Shown here: positions 10,386-59,752 of the stretch, piece by piece
Layout of the letters: every line of letters starts with the position of its first letter
Numbering within the stretch: position 1 is the stretch's first letter
Assembly (NCBI RefSeq): GCF_963676685.1
Contig: NC_092350.1
Location: forward strand, 44,764,001-44,828,000
Length of the DNA: 64,000 bases
Reading direction: 5' to 3'
DNA from: Mytilus edulis
Taxonomy: Eukaryota
Made by a program: the position numbers and the translations under genes
Notes under the pieces: model-generated
The model's input: the letters and a program-made list of their open reading frames with translations, nothing else
Told to the model about the DNA's origin: nothing
The model's database searches: none

Positions 10386-10567
10386 ACTCTTGTATTTTAT
10401 AAGTTGTCAAAAAAGCGGTACACAACAAAGACAGAAGGCAAAGACAGGGAACAAAGAAGGGATACTAAAACTCACAAGTCGAAAAGAAACTGACTAAGTC
10501 ATGTCGAAAAAACGAAAAACGACGAATGGTAAAATTGGTATAAAATGGTTTTTGGATATTCGTGTTA

Positions 10568-10834
10568 CAGCAGATTTCAGTCAGTATGTAGCTATTGGTA
10601 ATATCTTTGGTTAGCTTGCTTGTTAGCTGAACCGTGAAGTCATTGTTAGGTAAGGTAAACTTCCCTCCTTAAATAGTAGACTAGCCCAACAGATAAAAAA
10701 TCTATCTCTCTGTAGGACTAAGCTACTTTAAAAGGAGGGTAGTATACCTTACCTAACAATGACTTCACGGTTCAGCTAACAAGCAAGCTAACCAAAGATA
10801 TTACCATTAGCTACATACTGACTGAAATCTGCTG
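10568..10834. mobile_element. Palindromic MITE (Tc1/mariner-type), ~100-bp near-perfect TIRs, TA target-site duplication
   Basis: TA|CAGCAGATTTCAGTCAGTATG...CATACTGACTGAAATCTGCTG|TA; essentially the whole element folds back on itself. Confidence 0.85.
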
Positions 10835-11178: not shown

Positions 11179-11476
11179 TGACGTGACATGTCGGACAGTT
11201 TTAAACAATTATGCCATATTTGTTGTCACGTAAATGGGCGAAGCAGTTCATTTAGGACAGTTGGCTCTCACTTTTTTTTACAAACTTCAGACACTGTATT
11301 TGATTGGTCACTTGAAGTTTACATCGCCTCCATTCGTGGTATTGCTAATGTTCCCATTGCGTCACGAATTAAATAGAAAAAAATCTATAAATATTGAAAA
11401 ATCTAAATTAATCGTTCACTTACTTCTGAACTTGGATCTACTAAGAAAGACTAATTCTTTTCCTGAAAAGGTAGGA
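11179..11476 (+). promoter_or_regulatory. Candidate Pol II promoter and non-coding first exon (~11418-11470), possibly of the neuropeptide gene
   Basis: CRE-like TGACGTGA (11179), GTCACGTA (11225) and TTGCGTCA (11357); ATTGG (11303); TATAAATA (11386); Inr-like TCACTT ~31 nt later; donor AAG|GTAGGA at 11471. The first coding exon starts at an acceptor, so an upstream exon must exist. Confidence 0.45.
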
Positions 11477-17441: not shown

Positions 17442-17539
17442 ATGAACATGAAGCAAAATACAACAAGTATAATTGTAGCAGTAACGATATTATTAGCATG
17501 TGTAGTACAAGCAAGATATACAGATGATGACTTAGATCG
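17442..17539 (+). CDS. Shared exon: signal peptide and short acidic pro-region (MNMKQNTTSIIVAVTILLACVVQA-RYTDDDLD(R))
   Basis: Acceptor tttttgcag immediately before the ATG; hydrophobic core ending in VQA; donor CG|GTACGT, phase 2. Confidence 0.9.
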
Positions 17540-20500
17540 GTACGTTTTGTTTTTATATTTGTGTATGTGTTTTTCAGTATGTAATTTTTGTTTTCGTCGG
17601 TATTCAGTTTTTTTATAGACATGTTCGTGTATATGTGGGTATTCACTTTTCACATTGATTGTATGCGTACCTTAACTATGCGTGGATATGTTGTCCTGTA
17701 ATAGACTTCTCCTTGTTTTCTTTTGTTGCAGTTTTCTTTCCGAAATGAACACATTTGGTGAAATCGAAGACTTCATATCCAAGCGCGTGTTTCGTAGTCG
17801 CTTTGAAATATTCGATTACTTTTCAAAGATCCTAAATACCTTTCTTTCTTTCTTTATTCATGTCTGGAGTACACATTATACATTTACGATTCAATATTCT
17901 GTATATATGTACAGACATATTATGAACACTTTCGAAATATTTTTATAAAGCAAGATCGAAAAAAAGGATTTAAACTTTTTGATATATTTAACAGATATTG
18001 CAAGGCTGCCCCTTTGAAAGATTATAGAAAAAAATTGGATGTCTGTCAAATCTTAGATTTTTACTCCCTTTTTTGTATTTTATATTTTTCACAACAATGA
18101 ATGTTGATATTTTAATCATTGAGAGAATATTTTTAAAATAGAGTTGAAAAAGTAACGTTTACTGCCAGCATGTGAAAAGTCCATTTTATAAGACATCTGA
18201 ATGAAACGCAAGACATTTTGGGATTTTGTCACCTGTTTGGCATGCAGCGTACTCAGTTAATATACATTGACACAAAAACATATTCATTTATAAAAAGCAA
18301 AATGAGGACAATACATTATAATTTTCTTATTATATAAGCTACTCAAAGCGCAGTCCGCGCTCAAGCGATTCCAATTCACATATATATGGATTACCAAACC
18401 CATGTTTGAAAAAAGCGAGACTTGCATGTAAACCTGATATTCTTGATGAGTGTTTATATGAAGGAAAGTCTTCAGCAATATATGTGAGTAATGTTAATTC
18501 GAATCTACGCTCTCCTGTCTCCTGTGAAACATTGCATTGCATACATTATACATCGGGTTTGATGGAACGTTGATTTGTCTAAATCTTACCCATTTTACCT
18601 TTTCTATTGTCAGTTTTTATTTATCAATCAAATGTGTTATTTGTTTGTTCTCGTCCCTTAAATAATAGATTTAAATTTTATTTTTATTTCAAAGTTTGTT
18701 GCCGTTTTTGCGTTTTTTGTTTGTTAGTGTGAAGTTTCCCTCAGCCTTCAATTTCAAACTATACTTATTTTTACTTTTTCGTAGCGATTTTTTGATAGAA
18801 ATATTTAAATTTTGAAGTCTGTGTATATTTTACACAATTTATTTATGGTAGAAATAAAGCAATTGTTTCATACCATTAAAATACACCAACAATATTCAAA
18901 CGACAGCAAGCAGATGCACAGAAATGATATTCTTCTTAGTTGAAAACAACTTTTCCAAGTCATTCTCGAACATGCTCTCATCCATCAGTTTTCAACACGG
19001 TTCATGAATAACCTCTTAAATTGAAAAGACGTTTTTCATTCAGCAAAATAACTGTGTGAATCTTCTATCTGGAATTAATATCAAAAAGCTGTCGACATTA
19101 TCTATGAAGTATTTCTTTTTGATACTATTTCCGGTTTGTTTGGAATGGAAATATTCAATATTTGTCAATTGATGTTAAACCTTCTCATTACGCGTTAGGA
19201 GTAAAAAATCAAATACTTCGACGTAACATAAGCCTTTACTAATGCCTTTCCTAGAAAATTCCTTTATACTAATTTATTTGATTTTGTCTGTTAAGATTTA
19301 TATTATCAATCTCAATTTGTTAATTTGAAATCAATTTATCCATACTTTGCGACGAAGCATTTCTGTAATTGTTTACTATTTGAAGATTAAATTACCGTTC
19401 CTCTTTTCATAAGTGCAGTAAAATTGCGGCAGATCATCGCTTTTTCACAGCCACTTTAAACTTGATGCTTCTTCAGTACCGATTGGTTGTTTTATTTATT
19501 CACCAATTAAAGTTAGAAAATTTATTAGATTTGGTTTGCTTCTTTGTTACACAATAAGAATAATCAGCTTCCTACAAGATGATTCGAGAAAAACGACTAA
19601 GCTTTTCAAAACATAGTTTTTTATACAATGTCAAACAAATTATATTAATAGAAATGACAACACAGCATAAAAGTAACAACAATGATTGCATTTGATTACT
19701 TTAATGCTAATAAAACTCTGTACAGAAATGTTTAATAATTGAAGACAAAAATCGTTACAATATGATAGCGTCATAACATATTGTTTAAAATCACTTAGAA
19801 TTCAAATGCTCATATATTTCAAATCTTTTCCATCTAATATTATAGGAAAGAGAGGTTTTAAACGCCAACTATGGATAAATTATACTTTCCCCGCCTTGTT
19901 CTATTTTCTATTTTGAGAAAGAAGATTTTTATAATGTCAGGAGAGTACAGAGAACTGTTATATGATTATTTGATATCATTCTACTATGTACTTTAATCAA
20001 AGCTATATGTTTTAATGCATTGAAAGTCTGCGTTCAAACTAAGATGTATGCAAATTGTTCGAAACAATTCATGCAATATTTTTTTCTGAACAAATCCATC
20101 TAAAAGATCTACTTTTTGAGGACATACCACATTTTGACCGCATTTTCCTCGGTAGATTTCAGTTAATGATTCAAAAAGTTACCAAAGGTTTTCTCAGCAA
20201 CGACTTCATTTTGTTTGATACAGCTACATTTGGACAGTACTTACATTATTTACCTTTAAAATACCCATTTCCCAATTATAACAATAAACCGATCTCGCAT
20301 TTTCTCTCAGAATTTCCTGATATAAATTTTCTGAAGTGAAAAGAAAGCTGTTGAATTAAAGTTTGTAAATCTGCTTTCAAAATCGGAATATATTCGGGAA
20401 TTTACCAAACAACCGCAAAAGAAAAGACTAAATAATTTGAAATTCTTTTGATAATATAATTCTTTATGTATATGTATGCTTCTTGGCTTTACAAAAATAT

Positions 20501-23500
20501 CGACTCCTGCCCATGAGAAGAGAACTCGCAAATCAATAAGTTTGGCCATAATTCTCTTAATGAAAGTCCTGTAATAATTGGACATGTGTACGCTGTCCTC
20601 CAATATGGCGGCAAAAGATAGAAAAGCTCGAAACCTTATCCCTCAATGGGTTTTTTTTCATTACTTGTGTTAAATGTCATGTTTTACCATAATACACAAA
20701 CAGTAGTAGACAGGAAGAAACGACTTTACGTCTTTTCGATGAGATTAGGAATTGTGTCCTACGACAGTTATCCGTTTAAGTGTAGACTTTTCTACGCGAA
20801 TATCTGTTTGTATGTATATATGTGTGTGTTTTCATGTTATATGTTTGTGACTGTGTTTTCAGTGTTAAACGTCAAATGGCCGATGCAAAGGCCTCTGAGT
20901 ATCTAGCCCTGATCAGACTGGGCCTAGCCAGTGGGTGTCGAGAGATAGGGTGCGGCCTGATTGATTTTCACACCAGGTACAACAAAATGTACGTGTTGTT
21001 TCGTCCAAGTAACGTAACGTCAAGTGAAGTGGTATATATGATGGAATGATATATACTATGATATAACCATTATAATATAATATATATATATATTGATATC
21101 TAGCATGAAACAGTATATGCATTAATATTTATATATTTTAATATTTATCAATGAAAATTTGCAATATAATCTTATGTTACACAGTCCAACTTGTAAATGC
21201 GCCATTTCCTACAATATATGAAATATTTGTTAACATTGACGAACCCAATTAATAAAATTTTTTCACAAGTTGGACTATGTAGGCTTTTTATTGGCATGCT
21301 GACACACATGCTTTTAATTTAGTTCAAGAATGATCATAAGTTTAAACGATATATTGAGCAGAACATTGAAACAGAACTTAAAACGTGACAATAATGAAGG
21401 ATAAACCAATGAAAGTTAATAATATTTTTGTTTATTTAACTCATTTAGAGATCAAAAAGCCTTTGACTAGCGTAGAATGAGTTAAGCGTTACCCCATATT
21501 TACTGACTTTTAATTTATGAATTGACTAATTCAAAATTACAATCAAAATAATCTCCAATTATAAGACAGTAATTGCTCATATATTTTGAAATTCAAAACT
21601 TTCAAAATATTATGATCATCATTAGGTTATTCAACCAATAGATACAATCGTCACTTTCGAATTAGAATCTTAAGAAGAAAAAACCAAGCAGGTGATATTT
21701 AGAATGTTTATTCATTCATGATCATCTACTGGGTTGTAACCTATCTTAATCGTCTCTTTTGACATTCATGATCGGACCATTTCAACTTCATTGATGTAAC
21801 GTTTTTAAACTCTGCTCGATAAAACTCCGTTTATTTATTATTTTGCATGATGTTATGTTATATAACGAAGAGGTGGTTTAGAAAGAAAAAAAAAGAAATA
21901 ATTGAAAAAATAATGAGAGAAATTTATCTAAAATCTAAGAAGAAAATAAAACCATTTCTTCCTCTGTGTTATGTATGCTAATATATGCATGTTGCTACTA
22001 CCTTTCACTCACAGGTTTGCCAAGAGGTCATGGTCAGATCAACGTATAGCCGATTATCAAGCCAGACTGGCATTATACCAAGGACGACCTTTACTATCGC
22101 ATGGTCAGTTTGACACAAATAAAATGTAGGTATCAATTTATTTATATTGCAGAAATGACGATGCTTTGCTGCAGCGTTTCCAGGCTCATTTGCATGCTCT
22201 TCCATTTCTTTATGTCATAGAATACTTGATATGCGGGTTCGTTTAAAAAAAATATGGTACATGTGTTTAGGCTCGATACTTACCAAATTGTACCAAATAT
22301 GCAACAGGTATCAAATTTTTATCAACTTCTTAAGGCATAAATACAATGTCATCTTCATATTTATCAATTACTGACCAAGAAGCCGTACATTAACGTATTC
22401 TATGACACAGCACACCATCCCCAATTGCAGCTTCAATGCACTTATAATCTTCCTGGGCATAAACCGCATGCTTGATTTACTACAGATTTGAAAAGCGGAC
22501 GTCTTCAGACCAAAGAATTGCTGAACTTCAGGCGCTGATTGCGTTGTCGCGAGGTAGTGGTATAGTTGGGCATGGCAGAATTGACCCATATGGCATGTAG
22601 GTATCTCTGCAAAATTCGGTCAGGCTTTACGGATGTTTTCTGCATTCAGGTATCTCTGTTATATCCAATCCAGAATCGCTTGATACATCTAGCATGACGC
22701 TATCAATACTGGTAACACTTGCTATTAATAAGGCAGCGAGATAAAGTGTGTTCTTACAGAAACAAAATATTCTATTTCTATGAAGGAGTTAAAGAGAAAA
22801 ACAAGTGCTTAGCTACGTTTTTTCCTCCGAAGAAAAACGAACAAACAAATAAAGCAAAACGATTCATGCTTGAAAAAAACTAACATCGAAACATGCATAT
22901 ACATTTATTATGAATCAAACAAAAACATTTTAAATCTTCTATATTTGAATATAATCCCGAATATTTCATGCAATATCTCTGACAATGTCTGATGAACAAT
23001 AATGCTATAGAAGAACGTCATGGACTATAAGCAGAGAGGAATTCGTTACTTTTAAAAGAGCACTGTTATTTGTAAAACACAATTTACAAAATGTTACCAA
23101 ATGAGTTACAGACATGCGCACATGTTCATTATATGGCCTTACAATATTAGTCTTTCTCTTTGACACATTCTGTTATTGTTCATGCTTATTAGTGAGCTAC
23201 GTAAAATGCGCAAAACTGAACATATTTCTGCTTTACAACGTTAACGTCACAAAATTAAATCATTCTGCATTTATGATTCTTATTCTGCTGTTGTTCAGCG
23301 AAATGTTCATACAAAATTGCAACTGATGTCAGCGATATGGATTCAACTGCAGTGTTCTCATTACTTCAGTTTGTTTTGCACATAAGTGCGCAGACAGCAG
23401 TGCACTCACTTGCTAGAAAATAATACGTTACGACAAGCAAACCATCTCCTAGTATACATTACTTGGTATACTAGAAATTGCTTATTAGAAGAAACAAAAT

Positions 23501-24174
23501 TAATTTAAAAGCAAAAGTAATTGGAAAATTAAATTAATTGCAAATATCTATATTTAATTGAGATACATAATATAAATAGACCATTATACCAAAAAGAACG
23601 CTGCAGCTTTATACACATTTAAAGAGACCACGTCCACAGTGCTAAGAAAATGAGTACGCGTTCATTGCTTAAAAATATACAGGTATTACAAAAGGTTCAG
23701 CTCACAAAAGCGATACTCAGAGTGTCCTCCATAGAATTCTTGAATTTTTCTTTACAACTATTGTGCTAATTTTTCAAAACCTCATTGGTAGGCGAAAGCT
23801 TCGTCATTGATCGCTTTGCTTGTCGTCGTTAGAAAAAAGGACAAAAAAAAACACAAAAGACAAGAAACGTACTGCAAATACACAGTTAGTTAAACACTTT
23901 TAATCTATCAATATAGAACCGATACATCAATTTCAAAGGAATAAAAAAAAAAAAAATTGATCAAGTATATTGAAAATAAATTAAAATGATTCATGCAAAA
24001 TTAAATTGTGTTTCTAACTATCCAAACACCCATATGTGCGCAATCCAAATTTTTCTGATGCATTTCTTTTTTCATTCCTTTCACAGTGGTAGAAGGAAAA
24101 GAGATACTGGAATACTCAGAACACTCATAAACAAAAACAGACTTTTGCAAAATTCTGACGACAGCCATTTATGA
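17442..24174 (+). CDS. PTH-like (iPTH/PXXXamide-type) neuropeptide precursor gene with three alternative mature-peptide exons; isoforms of 99/98/98 aa
   Basis: Join 17442-17539 + [20863-20976 or 22015-22125 or 22486-22596] + 24087-24174. All junctions are GT-AG and phase 2. Each join gives an open frame with a signal peptide, KR site, homologous peptide and GRRKR. Confidence 0.9.
20863..20976 (+). CDS. Cassette exon A: (R)VKR-QMADAKASEYLALIRLGLASGCREIGCGLIDFHT(S), 35-aa Cys-pair peptide
   Basis: Acceptor gttttcag|T; donor CAG|GTACAA; 114 nt; creates an RVKR furin-type site. Confidence 0.88.
22015..22125 (+). CDS. Cassette exon B: (R)FAKR-SWSDQRIADYQARLALYQGRPLLSHGQFDTNK(I), 33-aa peptide
   Basis: Acceptor cctttcactcacag|G; donor AT|GTAGGT; 111 nt; SDQRIA and HGxxD motifs; not in the ORF track. 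Confidence 0.88.
22486..22596 (+). CDS. Cassette exon C: (R)FEKR-TSSDQRIAELQALIALSRGSGIVGHGRIDPYG(I), 33-aa canonical PXXXamide/iPTH-type peptide
   Basis: Acceptor tttactacag|A; donor AT|GTAGGT; 111 nt; SDQRxAEL..L.AL and GxGxxDPxxI-G-RR signature; not in the ORF track. Confidence 0.92.
24087..24174 (+). CDS. Shared terminal coding exon: GRRKR amidation/cleavage signal plus C-terminal peptide DTGILRTLINKNRLLQNSDDSHL*
   Basis: Strong polypyrimidine acceptor tttcttttttcattcctttcacag|T GGT AGA AGG AAA AGA; stop TGA at 24172-24174. Confidence 0.9.
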
Positions 24175-25519
24175 TCTGATAAATTTGTAAGTATATTTTG
24201 TAAATTATCAAATTGACTCATCTTCTTGTCTTCTATTATTGCGATGAATAGCTGTATCTTTAGTATATGCATTCTCGCACTTAAAACATTTGAAAAAAAT
24301 CTTGGAGGTTTCTACAATTCCAAGTTTCTGTCCTTACTTGATATACCTTTTATATAGTGCAGGACTGCTGAGGATTTATACCTGCTCTCCCGTCAATCCA
24401 CGATACAGAAACTACTATGTGAACATAATTCATTCTTCAATAGAGAAAAAAACAAAACAAGTGTTACATGGCATGTACAGAGCATCCAAAGATGGGATCG
24501 AACTCTCTCTCTATATATATATTCAACATCTGATGAATTAGAAATGCATACAGTTTGGTAATGCGCATGCTGTATAAGTGTTTCCTTATTGTTAACCAAA
24601 GTTACCCAACTCATGACTTTCGAATATATGACCTTATTCCCTTAGCTTCATTGATTACGTGATACTCATCATGGAAAGTGTCACATAACACCAAATTACA
24701 TAGAAACTAATAAAAAAAAAATCAAAATTATATGAAATGTATGTAAATATGTATTTTTTTGTTTATAATATCAACCACGTTTGTTTCAGGTAGATTTATC
24801 CGTCCAAAGAGCTTTCGTAGTCATCTAAATTTCTGTGGAATAATGAAGCTTCAAAAACAATTACGGACAATCAATTTCCGGAATCAAATTTACTTTATTT
24901 TTGTTTCGTCTCAGGAAATCTAGCTGCGCTAGACGTCTTGCTATTTATTTTGTTTATTTATTATATTTTGACGAAAATGTGATATTAAACGTGAGGCACT
25001 TTGCCTGTTTATATTGTGTATATCTGATAAGAATGGTTGAGATTTTGAGTACGTAAATAAATGGATCCATTTATTGCAATTTATGACTATGCTTTAATCT
25101 TGTTTTGTACCTGACCAGACACACAAATTCAGAAAGGTCACAGAATATTTTACCACCTTTGATTTAGATAGCTGTAAAAGCTAGTTTTACAAAGATTCCA
25201 AAATCCTAATATGCAGCTACATAAATGCATTGGAGTAGTAAAACAAATCAAAACAAGAACTCTCTTTCAACTTGTTTTAAAGCTGTTTCGAAGACAACTG
25301 CGAAAAAAACACATTTCCACAAATCAAATCTTTTCATTAACACATTGATGATACATCATAATTTTTGAACGGACATTGCACAAAGTTATACTTTTCTGTC
25401 TATGGTGTCTTCTTACTAAACCATTGAATGTATACTGATTGACACTTTAGTTTGGTGAACTTGATTTATTTGTTACTGCATTTGAACTAGATTCTAGTAA
25501 TTTCAAGTACGTCTGCAAA

Positions 25520-25850
25520 ATAAAGGCAACAGTAGTTTACTGCAGCTCAAAAGTCATGAATCGATTGAGAGAAAACAAATCCGGGTTACAAACTAAAACC
25601 AAGGGAAAGCCATCTACTATAAGAGAAAAACAATGAAACAACAGAACACTGAAGTGCCAACAATACAAACGACAATGCAACACACACAAACAATAACTAT
25701 TAAAAAAACAACTGCCATATTCCTGACTTAGTACAGGACATTTTAAGAAAAAATGGTGGGTTGACCAGGTTTTGTGGCTAGCCAAACCTCCTCGCTTTAT
25801 GGCAATGTTAAATATGCCGCTGAAATGATAACATTATATGACGGGAATAC
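25520..25850. mobile_element. Dispersed repeat family ('aataaaggcaacagtag...'); related copies at ~14128-14220, 33420-33960 and inverted at 61320-61482
   Basis: The same motif series recurs at four places in the window. Confidence 0.7.
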
Positions 25851-39465: not shown

Positions 39466-40904
39466 AATATCTATGTGTCTTTTGGTTGATGCTTTCGTCT
39501 AGATGCTGTCTTCTTCACGTTCACCCCACATCTCTTAATATTTGTACGCGGATTAGCCATATTAAGCTCCTAATTGACAACTTAAGAATGATTCAAATGA
39601 GATATTCTTAATTTGGAGGGCACTTAAATTAAAAAAAAATAACATAAAATTATTTTTAACCGCTACAAAATACATTAGCAGATGAAAATTAGATGACGTA
39701 GTAAGGTTGCCTAAGGAACAGAGACCAAAGGGACTAGGATGTTTACAACTAAAAACTTGTCGCTTTTACTGTATTATGTAATTTCACATATTTCATCTTG
39801 AAAAAAAAAAAAATACAAAAAAAAAAAAAAAAAAAGTCACCGTACAGTTTTTAATAGTGAGCAAAACCATACCACACAGTAAGCTATTTCAAATGCTTTG
39901 ACATGACAAAATGAAAAACAATTAAAAAAATAGATATGACAGCAACCAACGTATAACAAACTCATGGCTTAAGAAAGATTCATAAATTATATGGCAACTT
40001 AAACATATTTTCGAAGACTCCTTTCCTTAATCTGGAATGATAATTTTTTATACCGACATTATTACAAACAAAAAGCAGTTGGATATGCTTTGTCTATATG
40101 CCTTTTTGTGTTTCCTTGATACATATGACTTGGCACTGTACTTATACGTACCGTCATCATGTTATTATGCCAATGTTTATTTACCGTTTTTGTTTGATTT
40201 AATAGTGATTAAGATAGAAACATAATGTTGACTGCTTTACTCCTTTTTTTGACATTTATACCTATGTTGTCTTTTTGTTTTGTTCACACATCGTTGTCAA
40301 TATAATTGAATTGTATCCGACTTCCATTCAAGTGAGAGGTTTTGCTAGCTATAAAACCAGGTTCAATCCACTATTTTCTACATAAAAAATGCCTGTAATT
40401 ATTCAAGAATATGACAGTTGTTATCCATTTGTTTGATGTGTTTGAGCTTTTGATTTTGCATTTTGATTAAGAATTTTCCGTTTTGAATTTTACTCGAAAT
40501 TCAGTATTTTTTTAAAATTCCTTGTTTTTGAAATGGCTTTATTCATAAGTGCGGCTCGAAACACACACAAAAAACAACCAACACAACAAAACGTACCGAT
40601 TTAAGAGTACTCGCAGTTACTGAAAGCAAATTTAGAGTCAATTTCAATTATCTTACATAAACCATGTATTTCCAGAGTTAAATATCAATCCTGACGATTT
40701 TAGTGTAATTAACGTATCGATATGATACAGGACCAAAATTAATTACAAACAGAACTTTGCCGAAAAGTATCTTATAAGAATTCTCCATAACACTTTTGAA
40801 TTAAACGCGTTTCATAAATTGTGTATGAAAGTTTAAAATAACCTGACAAGTTTGTAAATTCATATATATTCAGGATATGTATTAATTTTTGGTATTGTAG
40901 AATA

Positions 40905-42596
40905 ATGGCAAGTAACTGGAGTGTTTGCGGGGTCTGTGATTATCGCCACATTACCAAGCCATCAGTTGTCTGGTGTTCTGAATGTGATGAAGGGCTTTGT
41001 GAAGAATGTAAAGATCATCATAGTATTTCTAAAGGAACAAGAAGTCATGGCACGGTGTCTATTGCCGAGTACCAGAAACTGCCAAACAAAGTATTACAAT
41101 TGGCACATTCTTGTAGTAGGCACAATGAGAAATATGTCCTCTTCTGTAAAAAGCATGACTGTCCGTGCTGCAAGAAATGTGTTGTTGACTCACACATTGA
41201 ATGTAAAGAATTGACCGATATCGATGATATTACACGAAACATCAAATCTTCAAATGCTTGTGTAGACATCGAACAGACCTTGTCAGAAATTGCCGAGAAT
41301 ATCAAAAGACTTCGAATAAACTGGGAAGAAAACTTGACGTCAATCGGGAAAAAGAGTAGATAAATTCACAAAGAAGTTTTAGAAAGTCGTGCTAGGATTA
41401 ATCGTCTTCTTGATAAACTTCAGGATACTATATTGAAAGATCTGAAAACGAGAGAAGAGGAAGAAAGTAACAAAATACGACAACTACTGAAGTCATTAAA
41501 CGACAAGGAAAAAGATATCACAGAATACCAAACAAATATTGCCAATATAAAGCAGTACGCATCAGACCTGCTAACGTTCCTCGCTTTGAAACATATAGAA
41601 AAAGATGTCGCGGTTGACGAAGCCTACATTCAATCAGTAGTAAAAAATTTGGGTGCGAATCAAATTGATTTTTCGTGCAAGATTAATCCCTCCTTACAAG
41701 ATTTAATATCTACCGTTCAGAAATTTGGAGATGTCGTGGTGACAGCAGATCCATGTAATGTCCTAATCCTGAAACATAAGGATAAACAAGCACAGATGAT
41801 GGTAGCTGTAACACCAATAACTATCGATAGCCTGAACCCTACATTGCTGCAGACCCTGGATACAAAGCTGACCTGTGTAACTGGATGTTCGTTTTTGCCT
41901 GATTGTAGGATGATATTTTCTTGCGCAATAGAACAGATGATAAGAGTTTATAAGCCAGATGGTTCTCTGGATTTTCATATTGGGAACTTATGTCCTGTAT
42001 TTGATGTGACACATATTATAGCAGAAAACGCGATTGCTTTGACATCTGGTTATCTCGAGGACTCACTTCAAATTAATTTGATTGACCTTAAAACACGGAA
42101 AGTAAAGAAAACATTGAAAATTAATGCAGTAAACAGTGGAATAGCATACAGTGAAGACAAGTTGATTTATTGTGCTGGGGAGAAAGGAATACAAATGATA
42201 AACCTTAATGATGAATCCATTGTTAATATTACTAAAACTAAAATGAGTTCATGGTCATACGTTGCATGTTTCGGAGAGAAAATTTTCTATACCGACTGTA
42301 ACGACGGTAGTGTAACCTGCATCGACTTTCAAGGGAACATACAATGGGTGTTTGAAAATAAAATGGTTCTTAGAAACCCATTTGGTATATCTGTAGATGG
42401 AGATGGAAATGTTTACGTAGTAGGAAGTAATAGGAACAATGTAATTGTTATCTCTCCCAACGGACAAAACATAAGACAGCTTCTTACTAGTAAGAATGGA
42501 CTAAAGTCGCCAATAGCGATACACGTTGATAGATCAAATTATAAAATGTTAGTCGCAAATTCAGGGAAACAAGCGTTCTTGTATGATCTTAAATAA
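40905..42596 (+). pseudogene. RING-less B-box/coiled-coil/NHL-like beta-propeller (TRIM-like) gene with one in-frame nonsense codon (TAA 41361-41363)
   Basis: ORFs 40905-41363 and 41433-42596 share a frame. Two B-box Cys/His clusters, a helical region and NHL-type repeats (PFGISVDGDGNVYV). Read-through length is 563 aa, in a single coding exon. Confidence 0.85.
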
Positions 42597-48360: not shown

Positions 48361-50462
48361 AAAATTGAGAAAGGAAATGGTGAATATGTCAAAGCGACAA
48401 CCACCCGACCATAGAGCAAACAACAGCCGAAGGCAACCAATGGGTCTTCAATGTAGCGAGAATTCCTGCACCCGTAGGTGTCCTTCAGCTGGCCCCTAAA
48501 ATATGCATAATAGTACAGTGATAATGGACGTCATACTAAACTCCGAATTATACACAAGAAACTAAAATTTAAAATCATACAAGACTAACAAAGGCCAGAG
48601 GCTCCTGACTTGGGACAGGCGCAAAATTGCGGCGGGGTTAAACATGTTTATGAGATCTCAACCCTCCCCCTATACCTCTAGCCAATGTAGAAAAGTAAAA
48701 GAATAACAATACGCACATTAAAATTCAGTTCAAGAGAAGTCCGAGTCTGATGTCAAAAGATGTAACAAAAGAAAATAAATAAAATGACAATAATACATAA
48801 ATAACAACAGACTACTAGCAGTTAACTGACATGCCAGCTCCAGACCTCAATTAAACTGATTGAAAGATTATGTCTTCATCATATGAATATCAGGTACAAT
48901 CCCCCCCGTTAGGGGTTTAGTATCATACTATCATAAAATATATGAGAAGAACATAACCCGTGTCATGCCAACAACTGTTTCTTTTAGAAATAAATGTGTT
49001 TAGTTCCGATGCAAAGACCCTATCAGTGAATCAATGTTAAAGCCAAAATATGCAATCTTTAATGACCTGACAACAGTATCGTAACTATATCCCCTTTTAA
49101 TAAGTCTATTTAAAGGTTTTGTTAGTTTCTGAGGAGAATACTGACATTTTTGTGCTTTATAAAGAATATTTCCATAAAATTTTGGATGTGAAATACCTGA
49201 ACGTATAAGATGTCTGCATGTTGAGTTATATTTACGAATTATTTCCTTATACCGGTGATAAAATTTAGTAAATGTTTTGACCAGTTTGTGATATCGAAAA
49301 CCCTGGTGTAATAATTTTTCAGTAATACATAAATTTCTCTCGCTAAAATCTAATACATTGTTACATACACGAGCGAATCGTACAAGTTGAGATATATAAA
49401 CACCATAAGATGGTGACAAGGGAACGTCACCATCTAAAAATGGATAATTAACAATAGGAAATGAAAAATCATCTCTTTTATCATAAATTTTTGTATTAAG
49501 CTTCCCGTTTATGATATAGATATCAAGATCGAGGAAAGGGCAGTGGTCATTGTTATCATTAGCTTTATTTAAAGTAAGTTCTACAGGATAAATTTCTTTA
49601 GTATACATACTGAAGTCGTCATTATTTAGAGCCAATATATCATCCAAATATCTAAAAGTATTGTTAAATTTTTGTATCAAATGTTGTTTTGATGGGTCTT
49701 TGCTAATTTTAGTCATAAATTGTAACTCATAACAATACAAAAACAGGTCCGCAATAAGTGGTGCACAGTTAGTCCCCATTGGAATTCCAATAACTTGACG
49801 ATATACGGAATCTCCAAAGCGAACAAAAATGTTATCAAGTAAAAATTCAAGTGCATAAATAGTATCAAAGCATGTCCAATTGACATAGTTCTTTTGTTTA
49901 TTGCTACTAAAAAATGATCTAAAAGAGTTTGAACATATGTACTCGCATTCCGACTTTTTAAATGCCCAGTTAATTAGGGATGTGAATTTTTTCTTAATAA
50001 GAATATGAGGCAAAGTGGTATATAGGGTAGAAAAATCAAAACTTTGAACAGATTCAAAATCACCAATATATGCATGCAATTTATCAAGTACTTCCAACGA
50101 GTTTTTGACACTCCAAAAGTAATTAATTCCACTATTTTCAAAGGCCTTATTTGAACAATTTATTATCAGGTTTTTTATTGTACCAAGTGTACTAGTAAGT
50201 AAAACAGACAATTTAGTAGTTGAACAATGGCTGGAAGATGAAATAAATCTATATTTGTAAGGTTTTTTGTGCAGCTTCGGAAGCCAGTACATAGTTGGGA
50301 CTTTCATTGTGTTTGGTTCTGCTTGTAAAGAAGTAGCTAAAAGTTTATGTTTGTTACAGATGTCGTTTTCTGAAAATGAAGTCAGTTGGAATGTTGGTGA
50401 ATTCGTGATTTCCTTTTGCAGAACCTCTATATAAAATTTACGTCAAACAATAATGATATTAT
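48361..50462 (-). mobile_element. 5'-truncated Penelope-like retroelement (probably Naiad-type)
   Basis: Uninterrupted RT ORF followed by a ~640-bp 3' region that also occurs as solo copies; no endonuclease C-terminal to the RT. Confidence 0.8.
49000..50307 (-). CDS. Reverse transcriptase of a Penelope-like element (N-terminally incomplete)
   Basis: Motifs YWLPKLHK, FDFSTLYT, YRQVIGIPMGTNCAP, FRYLDD, FLDL, YDKRDDF. Confidence 0.9.
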   Translation of the reverse strand: MKVPTMYWLPKLHKKPYKYRFISSSSHCSTTKLSVLLTSTLGTIKNLIINCSNKAFENSGINYFWSVKNSLEVLDKLHAYIGDFESVQSFDFSTLYTTLPHILIKKKFTSLINWAFKKSECEYICSNSFRSFFSSNKQKNYVNWTCFDTIYALEFLLDNIFVRFGDSVYRQVIGIPMGTNCAPLIADLFLYCYELQFMTKISKDPSKQHLIQKFNNTFRYLDDILALNNDDFSMYTKEIYPVELTLNKANDNNDHCPFLDLDIYIINGKLNTKIYDKRDDFSFPIVNYPFLDGDVPLSPSYGVYISQLVRFARVCNNVLDFSERNLCITEKLLHQGFRYHKLVKTFTKFYHRYKEIIRKYNSTCRHLIRSGISHPKFYGNILYKAQKCQYSPQKLTKPLNRLIKRGYSYDTVVRSLKIAYFGFNIDSLIGSLHRN

Positions 50463-50767: not shown

Positions 50768-51610
50768 CCTACCTACCTACCTAGTCCTTATTATGCCCAG
50801 AGGCACATATGATAAGGACTAGATCTTTCCACTCATCTCTGTTCTGTGCTTTCTTTTCTATTTTGACCCAGCTGATTCCATGTTCTTTCATTTCGGCTTC
50901 AACTGTTCTTCTCCAAGTTGCTTTTGGGCGTCGTTTCTTTCTTTTCTCCTCAGGTGTCAATCTTAGGGCGACTCTGTTCAAGTCCTCTGCTGGTCTTCTA
51001 CGAATATGGCCAATACATCTCCATATTTTTTTTGCTTTTATCAATAAAGTCTCCATGTTGTTGGGTCCTGTTGTTTCATGGAGGTCTTTGTTTGTGATCT
51101 TACGTGGCCAGAATATCCTTAAGATCTTTCTAATGCAACCGTTAAGAAAACTTGAGAGCTTGTTGCTGTCTTTTTCTGTCATTCTCCAGCATTCTGTCCC
51201 ATATAGCAGCACTGCTAGTGCACAATTGTTATATAGTCTAATTTTGGTGTTCTTACTGATGTTTGTAAATTTCCAGATGTGTCTTAGTTTTAAAAATGCA
51301 GTTCTTGCTTTTCCGATTCTACCTCTAATTTCTTTGAATGCTCCTCCTTCCGATGTTACCATGCTGCCTAAGTAAGTAAAGATGAAGTGATATCCAAGTG
51401 TGTCCCATCCAAATCCATTACAGGAGGCTAAGAGGCATGACTTCTGATTTCTTGATGTTGATATTCAGCCCAATCATACTTGCATTCTTTTGTTACTTAG
51501 TGGTTTTGTCTTGCATGTGTGTTTCTAGATGTGACAGTAAGTCCAGATTATCTGCATAGTCCAGATCTTCTAGGTAGCTATAGAGAGGCCATTCGATGCC
51601 TGTGTTGTTA
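50768..51610 (-). mobile_element. RTE-clade LINE 3' fragment, degenerate
   Basis: DLDYADNLDLL (decayed YADD), RIGKARTAF, LLYGTECW, RILRIFWP-like and WRRTVEAEM motifs; short (AGGT)n tail right after the stop. Confidence 0.85.
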
Positions 51611-54641: not shown

Positions 54642-55078
54642 AGAGGGACGAAAGATCGGGGATTGTAGTTACGACGTAAAGAACATATCCGATATCTTTT
54701 GTGAAACGGTTATTCCATAACGGTCAACCAACTCGTGATGGCGTCCGTAAAATATACGAAGAGATGATTTCAACTTAACCACTTGGAACTTTTGGTTTAA
54801 TAGCTTCCTTGTGAGGAGCAACCCTCTATCAAGAAAATCATGTTGGGAGCTGAAATCATCTCTTTTGTCGTAAAGTTTGGTTTTCAACCGACCCTCATTG
54901 TCAATTTCTAGATATAAGTCAAGATATAAGGCCGACTTAACTGTATCTGTTGTATCCTTTATCTCTAGTTCGATAGGATACATGCGTTCAACATAATCAC
55001 CAAATTTGAATTATTTAGTGAAAGAACATCATCTATATAGCGGAAAGTAGAGTTAAAGGATATTGCTAACTTCTTATC
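54642..55078 (-). mobile_element. Penelope-like RT fragment, frameshifted and internally deleted
   Basis: FRYIDDVLSLNN, YPIELEIKDT, YLDL, LYDKRDDF. Confidence 0.85.
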
Positions 55079-55832: not shown

Positions 55833-58038
55833 TATACTTAATTTAGTCCTGGTATCTATGATGAGTTTATTGTTACGAATAATCATAATTCATTATTTTT
55901 TATTTTTTTTATTATTATTATACTGTCCTAGTATACCTCTGGAGACGGTCTTCCGACCATAGGGTTTGGAAGCAGGTTTGCAGGTTTCCAACTTTTTTCG
56001 ACTACATATTTGGGATTTAATGTAGTTTGACCCGAGTTAACTCGTTTTAGTTGGTTGTTCCCGTCCGGCGGGATCGTCGATGAAAGAGCCTTTGTTATTA
56101 TTTGATATTTAACTAAATATACAACATATATGTCATATATCAGCATTCAGTAATCATCTATAATTGTATTGATTTATTTATGTATTTATGCTTATGAATT
56201 GTATTTTCAACTTATTAAAATCCGGTGTCCTTCAAGCTGTCTGGGTTATCAGCAATATGAATATATTGTTTTGTTTTATTATAGCCTATGTATTCAAGGG
56301 GAAAAGGTTAAGGTAATACTGTTTTTTTTCCACAAACATTGTATCGATTTCAAATATTTTGACCTCAATAACACTAAAATGTCATTTTTTGTCGAAATGC
56401 GTATTTGGGAAGTAAACTTGGTATTGTTTATATTATTGTGTGCAAATTGTCGTTATTGAAAATCACCAACAACACTAGAGACTAAGATATTTGACAGTCG
56501 TATATAAAATATATTTAATAAGCAGAAGTATCAACACCCAAAACGATAGAACAGAATAGCAACAACATCATTTTAAGATGCATCTTAGATGAGAGGGCTG
56601 TACTTTTACTTTCAGTAAATTGACAAAGTGTATTAGCTGAGTCGAAATGAAAAGTTTTCATGTAAGTATTGAAACACTTGCTACTGGGGTTTGGTGACTC
56701 AATTACTTAACAATCAAAAACCACATATATTACAAATTGGCTTTAAATAAAATGTTGAAACGAATTTCGATGAGCATAAACATTTTTTTTCAAAGAAAAC
56801 TTACAAGAGACTATCATCTGTCTAATGAATTGGGACACGTAGAATATCTGGGCATTTCGTATTTTTCCACACGAAGTGAATGTGACGCAAGTTTTGTTTT
56901 TAATTCTCAACGCTTTTCCTCTGTATATATGAAATTTTAACAAGCATTTGAAACTAAAACGGAATGTGTCTAGTCCATTTTGTTACGTTTTGATAAGCAA
57001 AACATCCAAGTATTTGATTTATTTTCGTACTAAGTACATATTGATCTTTGATTAAGGTTAGTGTAAACCGTAAATATATTTACCTAAGATCAGAGAAACA
57101 TTTAAATCATACCATTTTTAATTAAGAACTACGAGGTAACTATTGTCTATGGCATATACATTAATATATTTCAAGAGTAAAGATTTAAAAAATGTGTTGG
57201 CAGATTGTAACTATTGACGTTGTGCAGTATCTATTATTCCTGCGTACATAAAGGGTAAATAATTAAAATACCTTGGGGAAAATATAATTCCGAACCGTTG
57301 CAGTTTTGAATCGAAATTTCACTAAATGTGGGGTAAGTAGGAACTAGCTGTAACGTCTTAAATGAAATATGTAAAGCAATAATGAAAAATGACATTAAAA
57401 AGATAATCATGGCACTCTTGCATAGTTAATAATGAAAAATAACACAACTTTAAACCATTCACATTTTATTCATAGTTTCCTTGATTGATAGACATATTGT
57501 AACATAATTTGCTTCTTACCCTTCCAAGGTATCGGAGATCACTCCTGTGTTTGCATTGGGTTCATGTTGCTAAGTATAAAGGTTTTTTATTTGTGTAAAG
57601 AAGATTGTTTTTTGTCTTTTTGTCTTTTGGCCGATTTCTGTTTTTTTTTTGCATGACAATGTAAGTTCGTTTTTCACTTGAATAAAAACTTAAATTGTTA
57701 GTTAATATATTCCTTTATTATCTTTCGCCTCTCCTTAAAACGTTAACTTTCACAAGACATAATCATGTATATTAACATTTGAAAAACGTAATACTGTGTC
57801 CGACTTTTTGATCTCTTGATCTTAAAGATAATGAACGTCTTTTTCATATGAAGTTATGAAAAAATCTCATCTGCATGCAAATTTATTACCATACACGTGT
57901 TTAAAATGTAGCCGATCTTCCATGATTCATAAAACGTATATACTTATCGTATTGTACCCACTGACAATTTTAAATTTTGGTATAAATATACAGTGAATGA
58001 AGCTATATATCTACTTATATTTCACATTTTACCAGAAT

Positions 58039-59752
58039 ATGGCAACAAGTGAAGTTGTACATTTTGGACAGTGCTGTTCAAAAGCTAAAAACAAAACAGC
58101 TGATATCTGGTGTGACAACTGTGGAAAAGGTTTTATGTGCATCATGTTCGAAGAATCACAGGAAATCGAAATTGACACTGAATCACAAGACTGTAGATAT
58201 GGAAACTTATATTAAAATCCCGAAATTTATCCGTTCTACCAGTACAGAATGCTGTAAACATCAACAACTTCTAGTTTCTTACTGTCCAAATCACTTAACT
58301 CCTTGCTGTAAAGGATGTATATCAAATGATCATGCGAAATGCACTGGAATTGTGAGTTTAACCAGTACAGTCGAGAAAACTAATGTAGGAGATATACAGC
58401 AAGCCTTGCAGAAAGATTCTAAATCAATTCTATGTTCCTTTGACAAAATCACAGACAAACTTCTGAACAATGTGAAAAAGAGGGACAATGAATATGAAAT
58501 AATTAAATTGACAGCTAGCACAATTCGGAAAGAAGTAAATGAACAGATAGACCGGTTAGAAACAAAACTTTACAGGGAAGTCGATGCTTTAAAGGACCTT
58601 CAAAATGTAAAAACAACCGACTCCAACAATAGAATAAAGGGAAAGAAGAATGATGTTGTAGAAATAGTAAAACAATTACAACTGATAGAAAGGAATCATC
58701 CACAGATTCAAACTTTCCTCGCAGTACATCAGATAGAACAACAATTACATCAATATGAACTATCCGCACAGGAATTAGCACAACAAGATACATGTTACGA
58801 ATTTGATCTTAGTTTGAAGTATGACAAAATGTTTGAACAGACATTTTCCAATTTTAAATTACTAGAATCATTCGGAGATATATCAATGCGCAAAAAAGAA
58901 ATGTCTACCACTGATATTGCATCATTGGAAACGAAAGATGCACAAGCGCAAACAAGAGAACAAACCTTGATTCATAAAATGACTTTGAAACTAGAATCAA
59001 AATATAGCATAAAAGGCATTAAGACTGTTAGTGACATGATTTGGTTAACAGATGGTCGCTTCGCTGTCATTGAAGAATACGGCAGAATTTCCATGCACTC
59101 GTCGGATGGAAAATTTCAGAAATATTTATCCGTTACCGGTAAGGCTTTTAGTGCAGCGCGCATTGATCAAGACAATATCGTAACTAGCTATCCCGACGAA
59201 AAAAAGATAAAATTCATCAATCTATCAAATGAAGTTATAACAAATATTATTACACTGGACAAACCTTGTAGAGGTTTATCTTTTTTCAATGATACAGTCG
59301 TCGTAGCGTTATCCCATAACGATGCTGAATATAAAGAAATTCGAAAGATTAATTTGAAAGGAAATACTCTGAGTTCAATATACATTCAGAGCGAATCAAC
59401 TATATATTATCTCATTCATTCGAATGATAGAGTATTCTTAAGCGATTATATCGAAGATGCAGTCCGATGTATTGATATATCTGGAAATCAAATATGGGAA
59501 TTTAAATGCGATGAAATGAAAGGACCATGCGGCCTCTGTACAGATAATTATGGTAACATTTTTGTCGTTGCATTTGTTTCTGGCAATATATCAGTTATAT
59601 CTGCAGATGGCAAACAGAGCCATGTTATGTTAACTGACGATGGTGTTGTTTCAGAACCACAATGTATTTGTTTTAACAACAAAGATCGTATTGTGTCAGT
59701 TTGTCATTTTGGAGGTGAATATTTGATGAACTACAAAGTATTGTTTAAATGA
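58039..59752 (+). pseudogene. Second RING-less B-box/coiled-coil/NHL-like (TRIM-like) gene with a +1 frameshift in the T run at 58131-58134
   Basis: Likely true start accag|aatATG (MATSEVVHFGQC...WCDNCGKG) continues in another frame as LCASCSKNH. Removing one T restores WCxxCxxGLCxxC. NHL-type repeat PCGLCTDNYGNIFV. Confidence 0.8.

What the first reader, a model, noticed from the sequence alone, without database searches (positions are those of the whole stretch)
20863..24102. Amidation is outsourced to the shared exon, so splicing choice decides which peptide is matured
Seen: the last residue of each peptide is a split codon (AG+T Ser, AT+T Ile, AT+T Ile), and the amide-donor Gly and RRKR exist only in exon 24087. 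All cassettes are multiples of 3, so tandem inclusion keeps the frame. Upstream peptides would then end ...FHTR-FA-KR or ...TNKI-FE-KR, without Gly. Skipping all cassettes gives DLDR-GRRKR, a peptide-less precursor. Inference: only the cassette spliced directly to the last exon yields an amidated ligand. This argues for mutually exclusive use, or for non-amidated extended variants with different activity.
Basis: partly seen in the sequence, partly recalled or inferred. Interest (0 to 1): 0.7.

Follow-up and report, generated by a model that had tools for sequence, protein, structure and literature searches.

The report
Mussel iPTH gene with shared amide exon
One mussel hormone gene carries three interchangeable peptide exons that all borrow their amide signal from one shared exon, so splicing likely sets which peptide is amidated; the same layout is already published for the Pacific oyster, and the mussel adds a second splice site that changes the tail of one peptide.

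Summary
The feature is real but largely known. It is the Mytilus orthologue of the oyster QSamide3/PXXXamide (iPTH-family) gene. A signal-peptide exon (17442-17539) is followed by three frame-preserving phase-2 peptide cassettes (A 20863-, B 22015-22125, C 22486-22596) and a shared exon (24087-24186) that alone holds Gly-RRKR. Two corrections: reads leave cassette A at 20988, not 20976 (16 reads in one run, one contig in another), so peptide A ends ...YNKI-amide, not ...FHTS-amide; and 24087 is not the last exon. All cassette joints seen in 8 laid runs were single-cassette (A in three runs, C in two). Tandem forms are nevertheless annotated in Mytilus (A+B, B+C) and published in oyster, so exclusion is not strict. 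The oyster paper's mass-spectrometry table lists peptide A both amidated and non-amidated, though truncated rather than extended. Database models suggest the layout is old across molluscs and annelids. What I did not find in print: the mussel's two donors on cassette A, and the split codon stated as a switch.

The parts
11415..11470 (+). Exon 1 (5'UTR); the end is shown, the start is a guess from a TATA-like site at 11386 and an initiator-like site at 11415
   Evidence: Loose read ends before 17440 (6 reads, X24) match 11442 onward; AAG|GTAGGA donor
17442..17539 (+). Exon 2: start codon, predicted signal peptide and acidic spacer; ends in CG (phase 2), so the split codon is always Arg
   Evidence: joints 17539>20863 (13 reads in two runs) and 17539>22486 (contig, X3)
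20863..20988 (+). Cassette A, long form (126 nt): KR plus QSamide-type peptide with two Cys; 39 aa ending YNKI-amide when joined to the shared exon
   Evidence: Joint 20988>24087: 16 reads, one contig; exact in VDI22277.1 and XP_071121081.1
20863..20976 (+). Cassette A, short form (114 nt, CAG|GTACAA): 35 aa ending FHTS-amide, the oyster-like QSamide end
   Evidence: Database model VDI22275.1 only; not among joints in 8 laid runs
22015..22125 (+). Cassette B (111 nt): KR plus 33-aa PXXXamide-type peptide ending TNKI; lacks the Pro at -4
   Evidence: models VDI22278.1, XP_076115465.1, XP_071121081.1, XP_063398929.1; no joint seen in laid runs
22486..22596 (+). Cassette C (111 nt): KR plus 33-aa canonical PXXXamide/iPTH peptide ending PYGI
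   Evidence: One contig spans exon 2, C, shared exon and last exon (X3, depth 236); C>shared also in X4; exact in VDI22276.1
24087..24186 (+). Shared exon: third base of the split codon, Gly-RRKR, C-terminal tail, stop TGA at 24172-24174
   Evidence: joints
24790..25042 (+). Last exon (3'UTR) after a 603-nt intron whose donor lies 12 nt past the stop; true end not mapped
   Evidence: Joint 24186>24790 in 4 of 4 contig runs; loose ends in 14 reads; ATTAAA 24984, AATAAA 25056

Best explanation
This is the mussel QSamide/PXXXamide (iPTH-family) neuropeptide gene: three duplicated, frame-preserving peptide exons share one signal exon and one Gly-RRKR exon, so splicing likely decides which peptide is amidated, with usually one cassette per transcript and tandem inclusion predicted to give non-amidated upstream peptides. 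Shown: exon structure; single-cassette joints for A and C; different cassettes in different samples; use of the 20988 donor. From gene models only: B alone, A short, A+B, B+C. Inferred: cleavage at KR and GRRKR, trimming and amidation (general prohormone processing, recalled, and shown by MS for the oyster orthologue); activity on a PTH-type class B receptor (shown for beetle and tick iPTH, not for molluscs); regulation by splicing factors rather than by a built-in exclusion device; origin by duplication of an exon that already had an intron in the codon before Gly.
For: Split-codon table and exact identity of 5 in-silico isoforms with database proteins. RNA joints: exon2>A 13 reads, A>shared 16 reads; A>shared, exon2>C>shared>last, C>shared in contigs. 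Oyster orthologue with the same three cassettes, shared GRRKR tail, and single and tandem transcripts (PMC8398477 section 2.5.6 and supplement alignment); MS lists amidated A, amidated B and non-amidated A. Homologues with E down to 1e-68 by profile; Pomacea has A+C and C-only isoforms of one gene. No exclusion device seen: introns between cassettes are 1026 and 360 nt, frame is kept, and the longest inverted repeat is 31 nt, 74%, AT-rich. A bioRxiv tick paper uses VDI22276.1 (the C isoform) as the Mytilus iPTH.
Against: No tandem joint, no B joint and no short-A joint were seen in any of the 8 runs, so three of the named isoform types rest on predicted models whose read support I could not see. 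Depth was low (57 reads laid in four raw runs, 6-18% of each run read), tissues are unknown, the raw runs carry a different organism label (B) than the best DNA holders (A), and contigs drop rare forms. The oyster non-amidated peptide could also come from trimming of the amidated one. The oyster MS table has no C peptide and no extended B peptide although the text says all but one mature peptide were detected. No mollusc receptor assay was found.
Confidence: 0.85

Rival explanations
1. In Mytilus the cassettes are strictly mutually exclusive and the tandem gene models are annotation artefacts or splicing noise.
For: Every cassette joint seen was single-cassette; in X24 16 reads went from A to the shared exon and no A>B or A>C joint reached the 3-read threshold. 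The four M. galloprovincialis VDI models are all single-cassette. Collections tend to keep the longest product, which favours tandem models.
Against: Tandem models in M. edulis (A+B) and M. trossulus (B+C); tandem transcripts published for oyster, one with an assembled ganglion contig; no steric, frame or RNA-pairing device found.
Confidence: 0.2
2. Tandem precursors are the main functional form in some cells; the upstream peptides are active free-acid ligands or co-released modulators, and amidation matters little for them.
For: A+C is the annotated form in chiton, abalone, apple snail, land snail, whelk, octopus and Capitella; A+B+C in oysters and a scallop; non-amidated A is in the oyster MS table.
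Against: No tandem joint in the mussel runs; annotation bias towards the longest model; the amidation signal is strictly conserved in iPTH precursors (PMC7224569 passage).
Confidence: 0.2
3. The arrangement is a passive by-product of exon duplication; the point of the gene is ligand diversity, and loss of the amide in tandem forms has no regulated role.
For: Read-through database proteins stop or diverge at the residue before Gly in oyster, ark shell, gastropods and unnamed records, which suggests the intron was there before the duplications. B and C align without gaps and share 11 identical letters across the donor.
Against: Tandem and single forms both recur across distant taxa, and sample-specific cassette choice is seen. 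It is compatible with the best explanation as to origin and differs only on function.
Confidence: 0.4

Closest known systems
Pacific oyster Cragi-QSamide3/PXXXamide gene (PMC8398477; LOC105323263)
   Same: Same three cassettes in the same order, shared signal exon and shared GRRKR tail; single (A, B) and tandem (A+B, B+C) transcripts; amidated and non-amidated peptides by MS.
   Different: Oyster A ends in Ser-amide, and in tandem the junction Arg makes an RR site that fits the truncated free-acid peptide. Mussel A uses a donor 12 nt further on and ends YNKI-amide; the junction makes no dibasic site. Mussel B has lost the -4 Pro.
Insect and tick iPTH / PXXXamide (PMC7224569; bioRxiv 10.64898/2026.06.22.733765)
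   Same: Signal peptide, KR, SD near the peptide start, Pro at -4 (cassette C), Gly plus basic pair, C-terminal extension; cassette C matches a wasp precursor at 58% over 33 aa.
   Different: One peptide per precursor; no splicing mentioned in the passages searched; receptors tested there, not in molluscs.
QSamide/QSGamide peptides of annelids and molluscs
   Same: Cassette A: N-terminal Gln, C-x4-C-G-L-I-D motif; short form ends Ser-Gly. PMC8557429 treats QSGamide and iPTH as orthologues.
   Different: The read-supported mussel form ends Ile-amide after four extra residues.
Calcitonin-type genes with alternative or tandem peptide exons (sea cucumber AjCTP1/2, PMC12638048; vertebrate CT/CGRP)
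   Same: Class B receptor ligands varied by splicing, one or two peptides per transcript (figure legends only).
   Different: In vertebrate CT/CGRP each exon carries its own Gly and cleavage site (recalled); here these are shared.

Membership tests
iPTH/PXXXamide | Signal peptide, dibasic site, mature peptide, Gly plus basic pair, C-terminal extension | tested here: met
   signal peptide judged by eye from the hydrophobic N-terminus, no predictor run
iPTH/PXXXamide | SD near the N-terminus of the mature peptide and the SDQR-I-A-E-L block | tested here: met
   Cassettes B and C; alignment, tblastn. Cassette A has AD
iPTH/PXXXamide | Pro at -4 from the amide (only mildly conserved per PMC7224569) | tested here: inconclusive
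   Met in C (PYGI); not met in B (TNKI) or A long (YNKI)
iPTH/PXXXamide | Activates a PTH-type (cluster B) class B GPCR | not testable with these tools
   Shown for beetle and tick; PMC8557429 says unproven in lophotrochozoans as of 2021
QSamide/QSGamide | N-terminal Gln after KR/RR and two Cys in a C-x4-C-G-hydrophobic-D motif | tested here: met
   Cassette A against oyster, chiton, gastropod, octopus and Capitella precursors
QSamide/QSGamide | C-terminal Ser-amide | tested here: inconclusive
   Only with the 20976 donor (model VDI22275.1); reads use 20988, giving Ile-amide
Orthologue of oyster QSamide3/PXXXamide gene | Three cassettes in order A, B, C between a shared signal exon and a shared GRRKR exon | tested here: met
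   tblastn of oyster P0006 and scallop P0003 maps their three peptides to 20867, 22010 and 22493; synteny not tested
Mutually exclusive exon cluster | Exactly one exon per transcript, never two | tested here: inconclusive
   Met in all joints seen (low depth); contradicted by tandem models and oyster transcripts
Mutually exclusive exon cluster | An exclusion device: steric spacing, frameshift with decay, or docking/selector pairing | tested here: not met
   Introns 1026 and 360 nt; frame kept; no convincing inverted repeats; branch points not mapped and no cross-species covariation test possible

The most novel reading that the evidence does not exclude
QSamide and PXXXamide/iPTH are splice isoforms of one gene whose amide switch dates to the annelid-mollusc ancestor: one split codon turns peptide A into an amidated ligand or a free acid. 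Mussels added a second donor that gives A the same NKI-amide end as B, retargeting it to another PTH-type receptor, while tandem free-acid peptides act as partial agonists or antagonists.
Probability: 0.25. Interest if true: 0.6.

Novelty: new member of a known kind. Interest (0 to 1): 0.3.

Why it matters
The iPTH system is the invertebrate counterpart of the PTH/glucagon/PACAP receptor group and has no tested ligand-receptor pair in molluscs in the papers I saw. Anyone testing mussel receptors needs the right peptides: one gene can give four amidated ones (A short, A long, B, C) and several free-acid ones, and the read-supported A is not the one a reader would guess from the oyster. If the free-acid forms differ in activity, splicing would control a post-translational modification. 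The layout itself has been in print since 2021.

Tried and rejected
No run was on record as an RNA holder in the run search; the four contig runs are RNA only by guess. X21 and X22 gave no joints (3 and 8 reads laid), and cassette B had no spliced cover in any run: no evidence either way. A zero-cassette joint (17539>24087) was not seen and no such model came up. Tandem +4 donors at B and C (AT|GTAG|GTATC), which would give Met-stop, were not seen in reads. No fourth cassette: the scan of 17540-24086 and tblastn found only A, B, C; a candidate at 18339 has no homology. No paralogue in the genome by two protein searches, each with only 2 candidates scored. No docking/selector repeats. Pfam has no family for the precursors. 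A metagenome scan for other mussels' DNA found nothing, so intron positions outside this genome are inferred from proteins only. Earlier scan findings: none. Literature: 8 searches gave no paper on the Mytilus gene's splicing; a recalled 2024 subscription-journal paper on mollusc family B1 GPCR ligands was not held and may cover it. Figure 5 of the oyster paper is an image I could not see. A crude U1-pairing score favoured the short A donor (-7.1 vs -3.1 kcal), against the reads, so I gave it no weight. No fold or complex prediction was run.

Full report
What is there. The region is a plus-strand neuropeptide gene in an AT-rich animal genome of 1.37 billion bases. Its products match proteins named for Mytilus trossulus, M. 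edulis and M. galloprovincialis letter for letter, so the animal is a Mytilus mussel. Exon 1 ends at 11470 (loose read ends; located). Exon 2 (17442-17539) holds the start codon and a hydrophobic leader and ends in CG. Three peptide cassettes follow: A from 20863, B 22015-22125, C 22486-22596. Each opens with a short spacer and KR. The shared exon 24087-24186 supplies the last base of the split codon, Gly-RRKR, a tail and the stop. A 3'UTR intron of 603 nt leads to a last exon at 24790 (4 of 4 runs).

Check of the observation. All introns round the cassettes are phase 2 and all cassette lengths are multiples of 3; no cassette has its own Gly plus basic pair. Exon 2 gives Arg with any acceptor. 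One detail fails. Cassette A has two in-frame donors, after 20976 (CAG|GTACAA) and after 20988 (AAT|GTACGT). Raw reads of run X24 join 20988 to 24087 (16 reads, 8 starts; 3 more show the last 9 letters of the long form), and a contig of run X1 does too; no 20976 joint was listed. Peptide A then ends YNKI-amide (39 aa) instead of FHTS-amide (35 aa). Both forms exist as M. galloprovincialis models (VDI22277.1 and VDI22275.1).

Which isoforms are made. I laid 8 of the 24 runs listed. Five gave a cassette joint: X23 exon2>A (2 reads); X24 exon2>A (11) and A>shared (16); X1 A>shared; X3 one contig through exon 2, C, shared and last exon; X4 C>shared. X2 showed only the 3'UTR joint; X21 and X22 showed none. 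No cassette-to-cassette, zero-cassette or B joint appeared. Limits: a joint needs 3 reads to be listed, 57 reads in all were laid from the raw runs, contigs drop rare forms, tissues are unknown, and the raw runs bear a different organism label from the best DNA holders. Gene models fill the rest: B alone (VDI22278.1, XP_076115465.1), C alone (VDI22276.1), A long + B (XP_071121081.1), B + C (XP_063398929.1). These are predictions. So single-cassette transcripts dominate where I could look, the choice differs between samples, and tandem forms are likely but not shown here.

What it is. The peptides belong to the QSamide/PXXXamide (iPTH) family. PMC8398477 (I read passages, section 2.5.6, and parts 4 and 7 of 7 of the supplement; Figure 5 is an image I could not see) describes an oyster gene whose differential splicing yields QSamide3, PYKIamide, and two tandem precursors. 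Its alignment shows the same cassettes and shared GRRKR tail. Its MS table lists peptide A ending in Ser-amide, peptide A ending two residues earlier as a free acid and assigned to the tandem precursor, and peptide B amidated. In the oyster the split codon gives Ser before the shared exon and Arg before B, which makes an RR site; that fits the truncated form (my inference; trimming of the amidated peptide is another source). The table has no C peptide and no extended B peptide. PMC7224569 (passages) defines iPTH and shows receptor activation in a beetle. A tick preprint (passages; supplements closed) uses VDI22276.1 as the mussel iPTH. PMC8557429 (passages) calls QSGamide and iPTH orthologous and the lophotrochozoan receptor pairing unproven.

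How old the layout is. A profile search returned 72 proteins. Among the 86 proteins held, 21 have an A-type peptide directly followed by a P-type one: oysters, a scallop, chiton, abalone, apple snail, land snail, whelk, Batillaria, octopus, Capitella and one Mytilus. In the 20 non-Mytilus rows the residue at the presumed junction is Arg or Ser, as AG+N would give; the junction is inferred from protein alone. Pomacea has A+C and C-only isoforms of one locus, and the Aplysia and Platynereis QSamide precursors are A-only. Read-through proteins break off at the residue before Gly in oyster, ark shell, gastropods and unnamed records, which suggests that the intron there predates the duplications. 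B looks like a later copy of C: they align without gaps inside the exon, and two P-type peptides occur only in mussel, oyster and scallop rows. Unnamed read-through proteins, one pair 83% and 73% identical to cassette A, keep R-Y-x-K-M-Y-V after the peptide (7 full records, plus one partial), which fits both donors being kept in other mussels (inferred; no DNA obtained).

How it most likely works. A cell picks a cassette; the precursor is cut at KR and at GRRKR, trimmed, and the Gly becomes the amide (standard processing, recalled; backed by the oyster MS). If two cassettes are kept, only the last is amidated; mussel A would end YNKM-FA or YNKI-FE and B would end TNKI-FE after cleavage at the next KR. 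Nothing in the sequence forces exclusion: the introns are 1026 and 360 nt, the frame is kept, and inverted repeats are short and AT-rich. Choice by splicing factors is the likely control. The introns after A, B and C are rich in CATGC (10 seen; 0 of 1000 shuffles reach it; top of 1024 5-mers against the window), TGCT (23; 0 of 1000) and GCATG (7; 14 of 1000), while TGCATG and YGCY are not significant (96 and 144 of 1000). These motifs were picked after looking; GCAUG as an RBFOX site is recalled. This is a lead only.

Verdict. Real, well supported, and mostly known from the oyster since 2021. Not found in my 8 searches: the Mytilus splicing, the second donor of cassette A, and the split codon described as an amide switch shared by molluscs and annelids. 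A subscription paper that I could not read may cover part of this. Interest 0.3.

Noticed in passing
window 22124-22135 and 22595-22606: Cassettes B and C share ATGTAGGTATC across their donors. Read-through or the +4 donor gives Met then a TAG stop; oyster and gastropod read-through proteins also end in Met there. With the 3'UTR intron downstream such transcripts would likely be decay targets.
   Followed up: partly
window 20989-24086 (introns): CATGC, TGCT and GCATG are enriched in the introns after the cassettes, not (GCATG, CATGC) in the exon2-A intron; candidate splicing-factor sites.
   Followed up: partly
window 20977-20988 and 22114-22125: Long A and B both end in Asn-Lys plus AT, so both peptides end NKI-amide, whereas their oyster counterparts end FRS and PYKI; convergence or local conversion, untested.
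   Followed up: no
P0034 (Octopus vulgaris model): Two A-type peptides, and the second is followed by S-G-K-R before the P-type peptide, so it could be amidated in tandem; O. bimaculoides has S-V-K-R there. Predicted model only.
   Followed up: no
P0045, P0046 (unnamed read-through proteins, oyster-like): Cassette A reads on as R-R-Y-R-Y, which may hide a second donor 6 nt downstream in oysters too.
   Followed up: no
P0010, P0019, P0022, P0041, P0084: M. galloprovincialis models carry 40-93 extra N-terminal residues read through exon 1 and upstream; probably mis-called starts, since the leader begins in exon 2.
   Followed up: no
window 40842-42596 (+): B-box plus beta-propeller (TRIM-like) gene interrupted by a stop codon at 41361-41363; a similar intact frame lies at 58001-59752.
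   Followed up: partly
window 49000-50442 (-), 50781-51464 (-), 54669-55010 (-): Frames that look by eye like retrotransposon remnants; the first had no Pfam match at 0.001.
   Followed up: partly
window ~10560-10640 and ~10740-10800: A pair of long inverted arms about 100 nt apart upstream of exon 1, seen by eye; probably a small transposon.
   Followed up: no
window 25518-25600: A repeat present in many contigs of all four contig runs.
   Followed up: no
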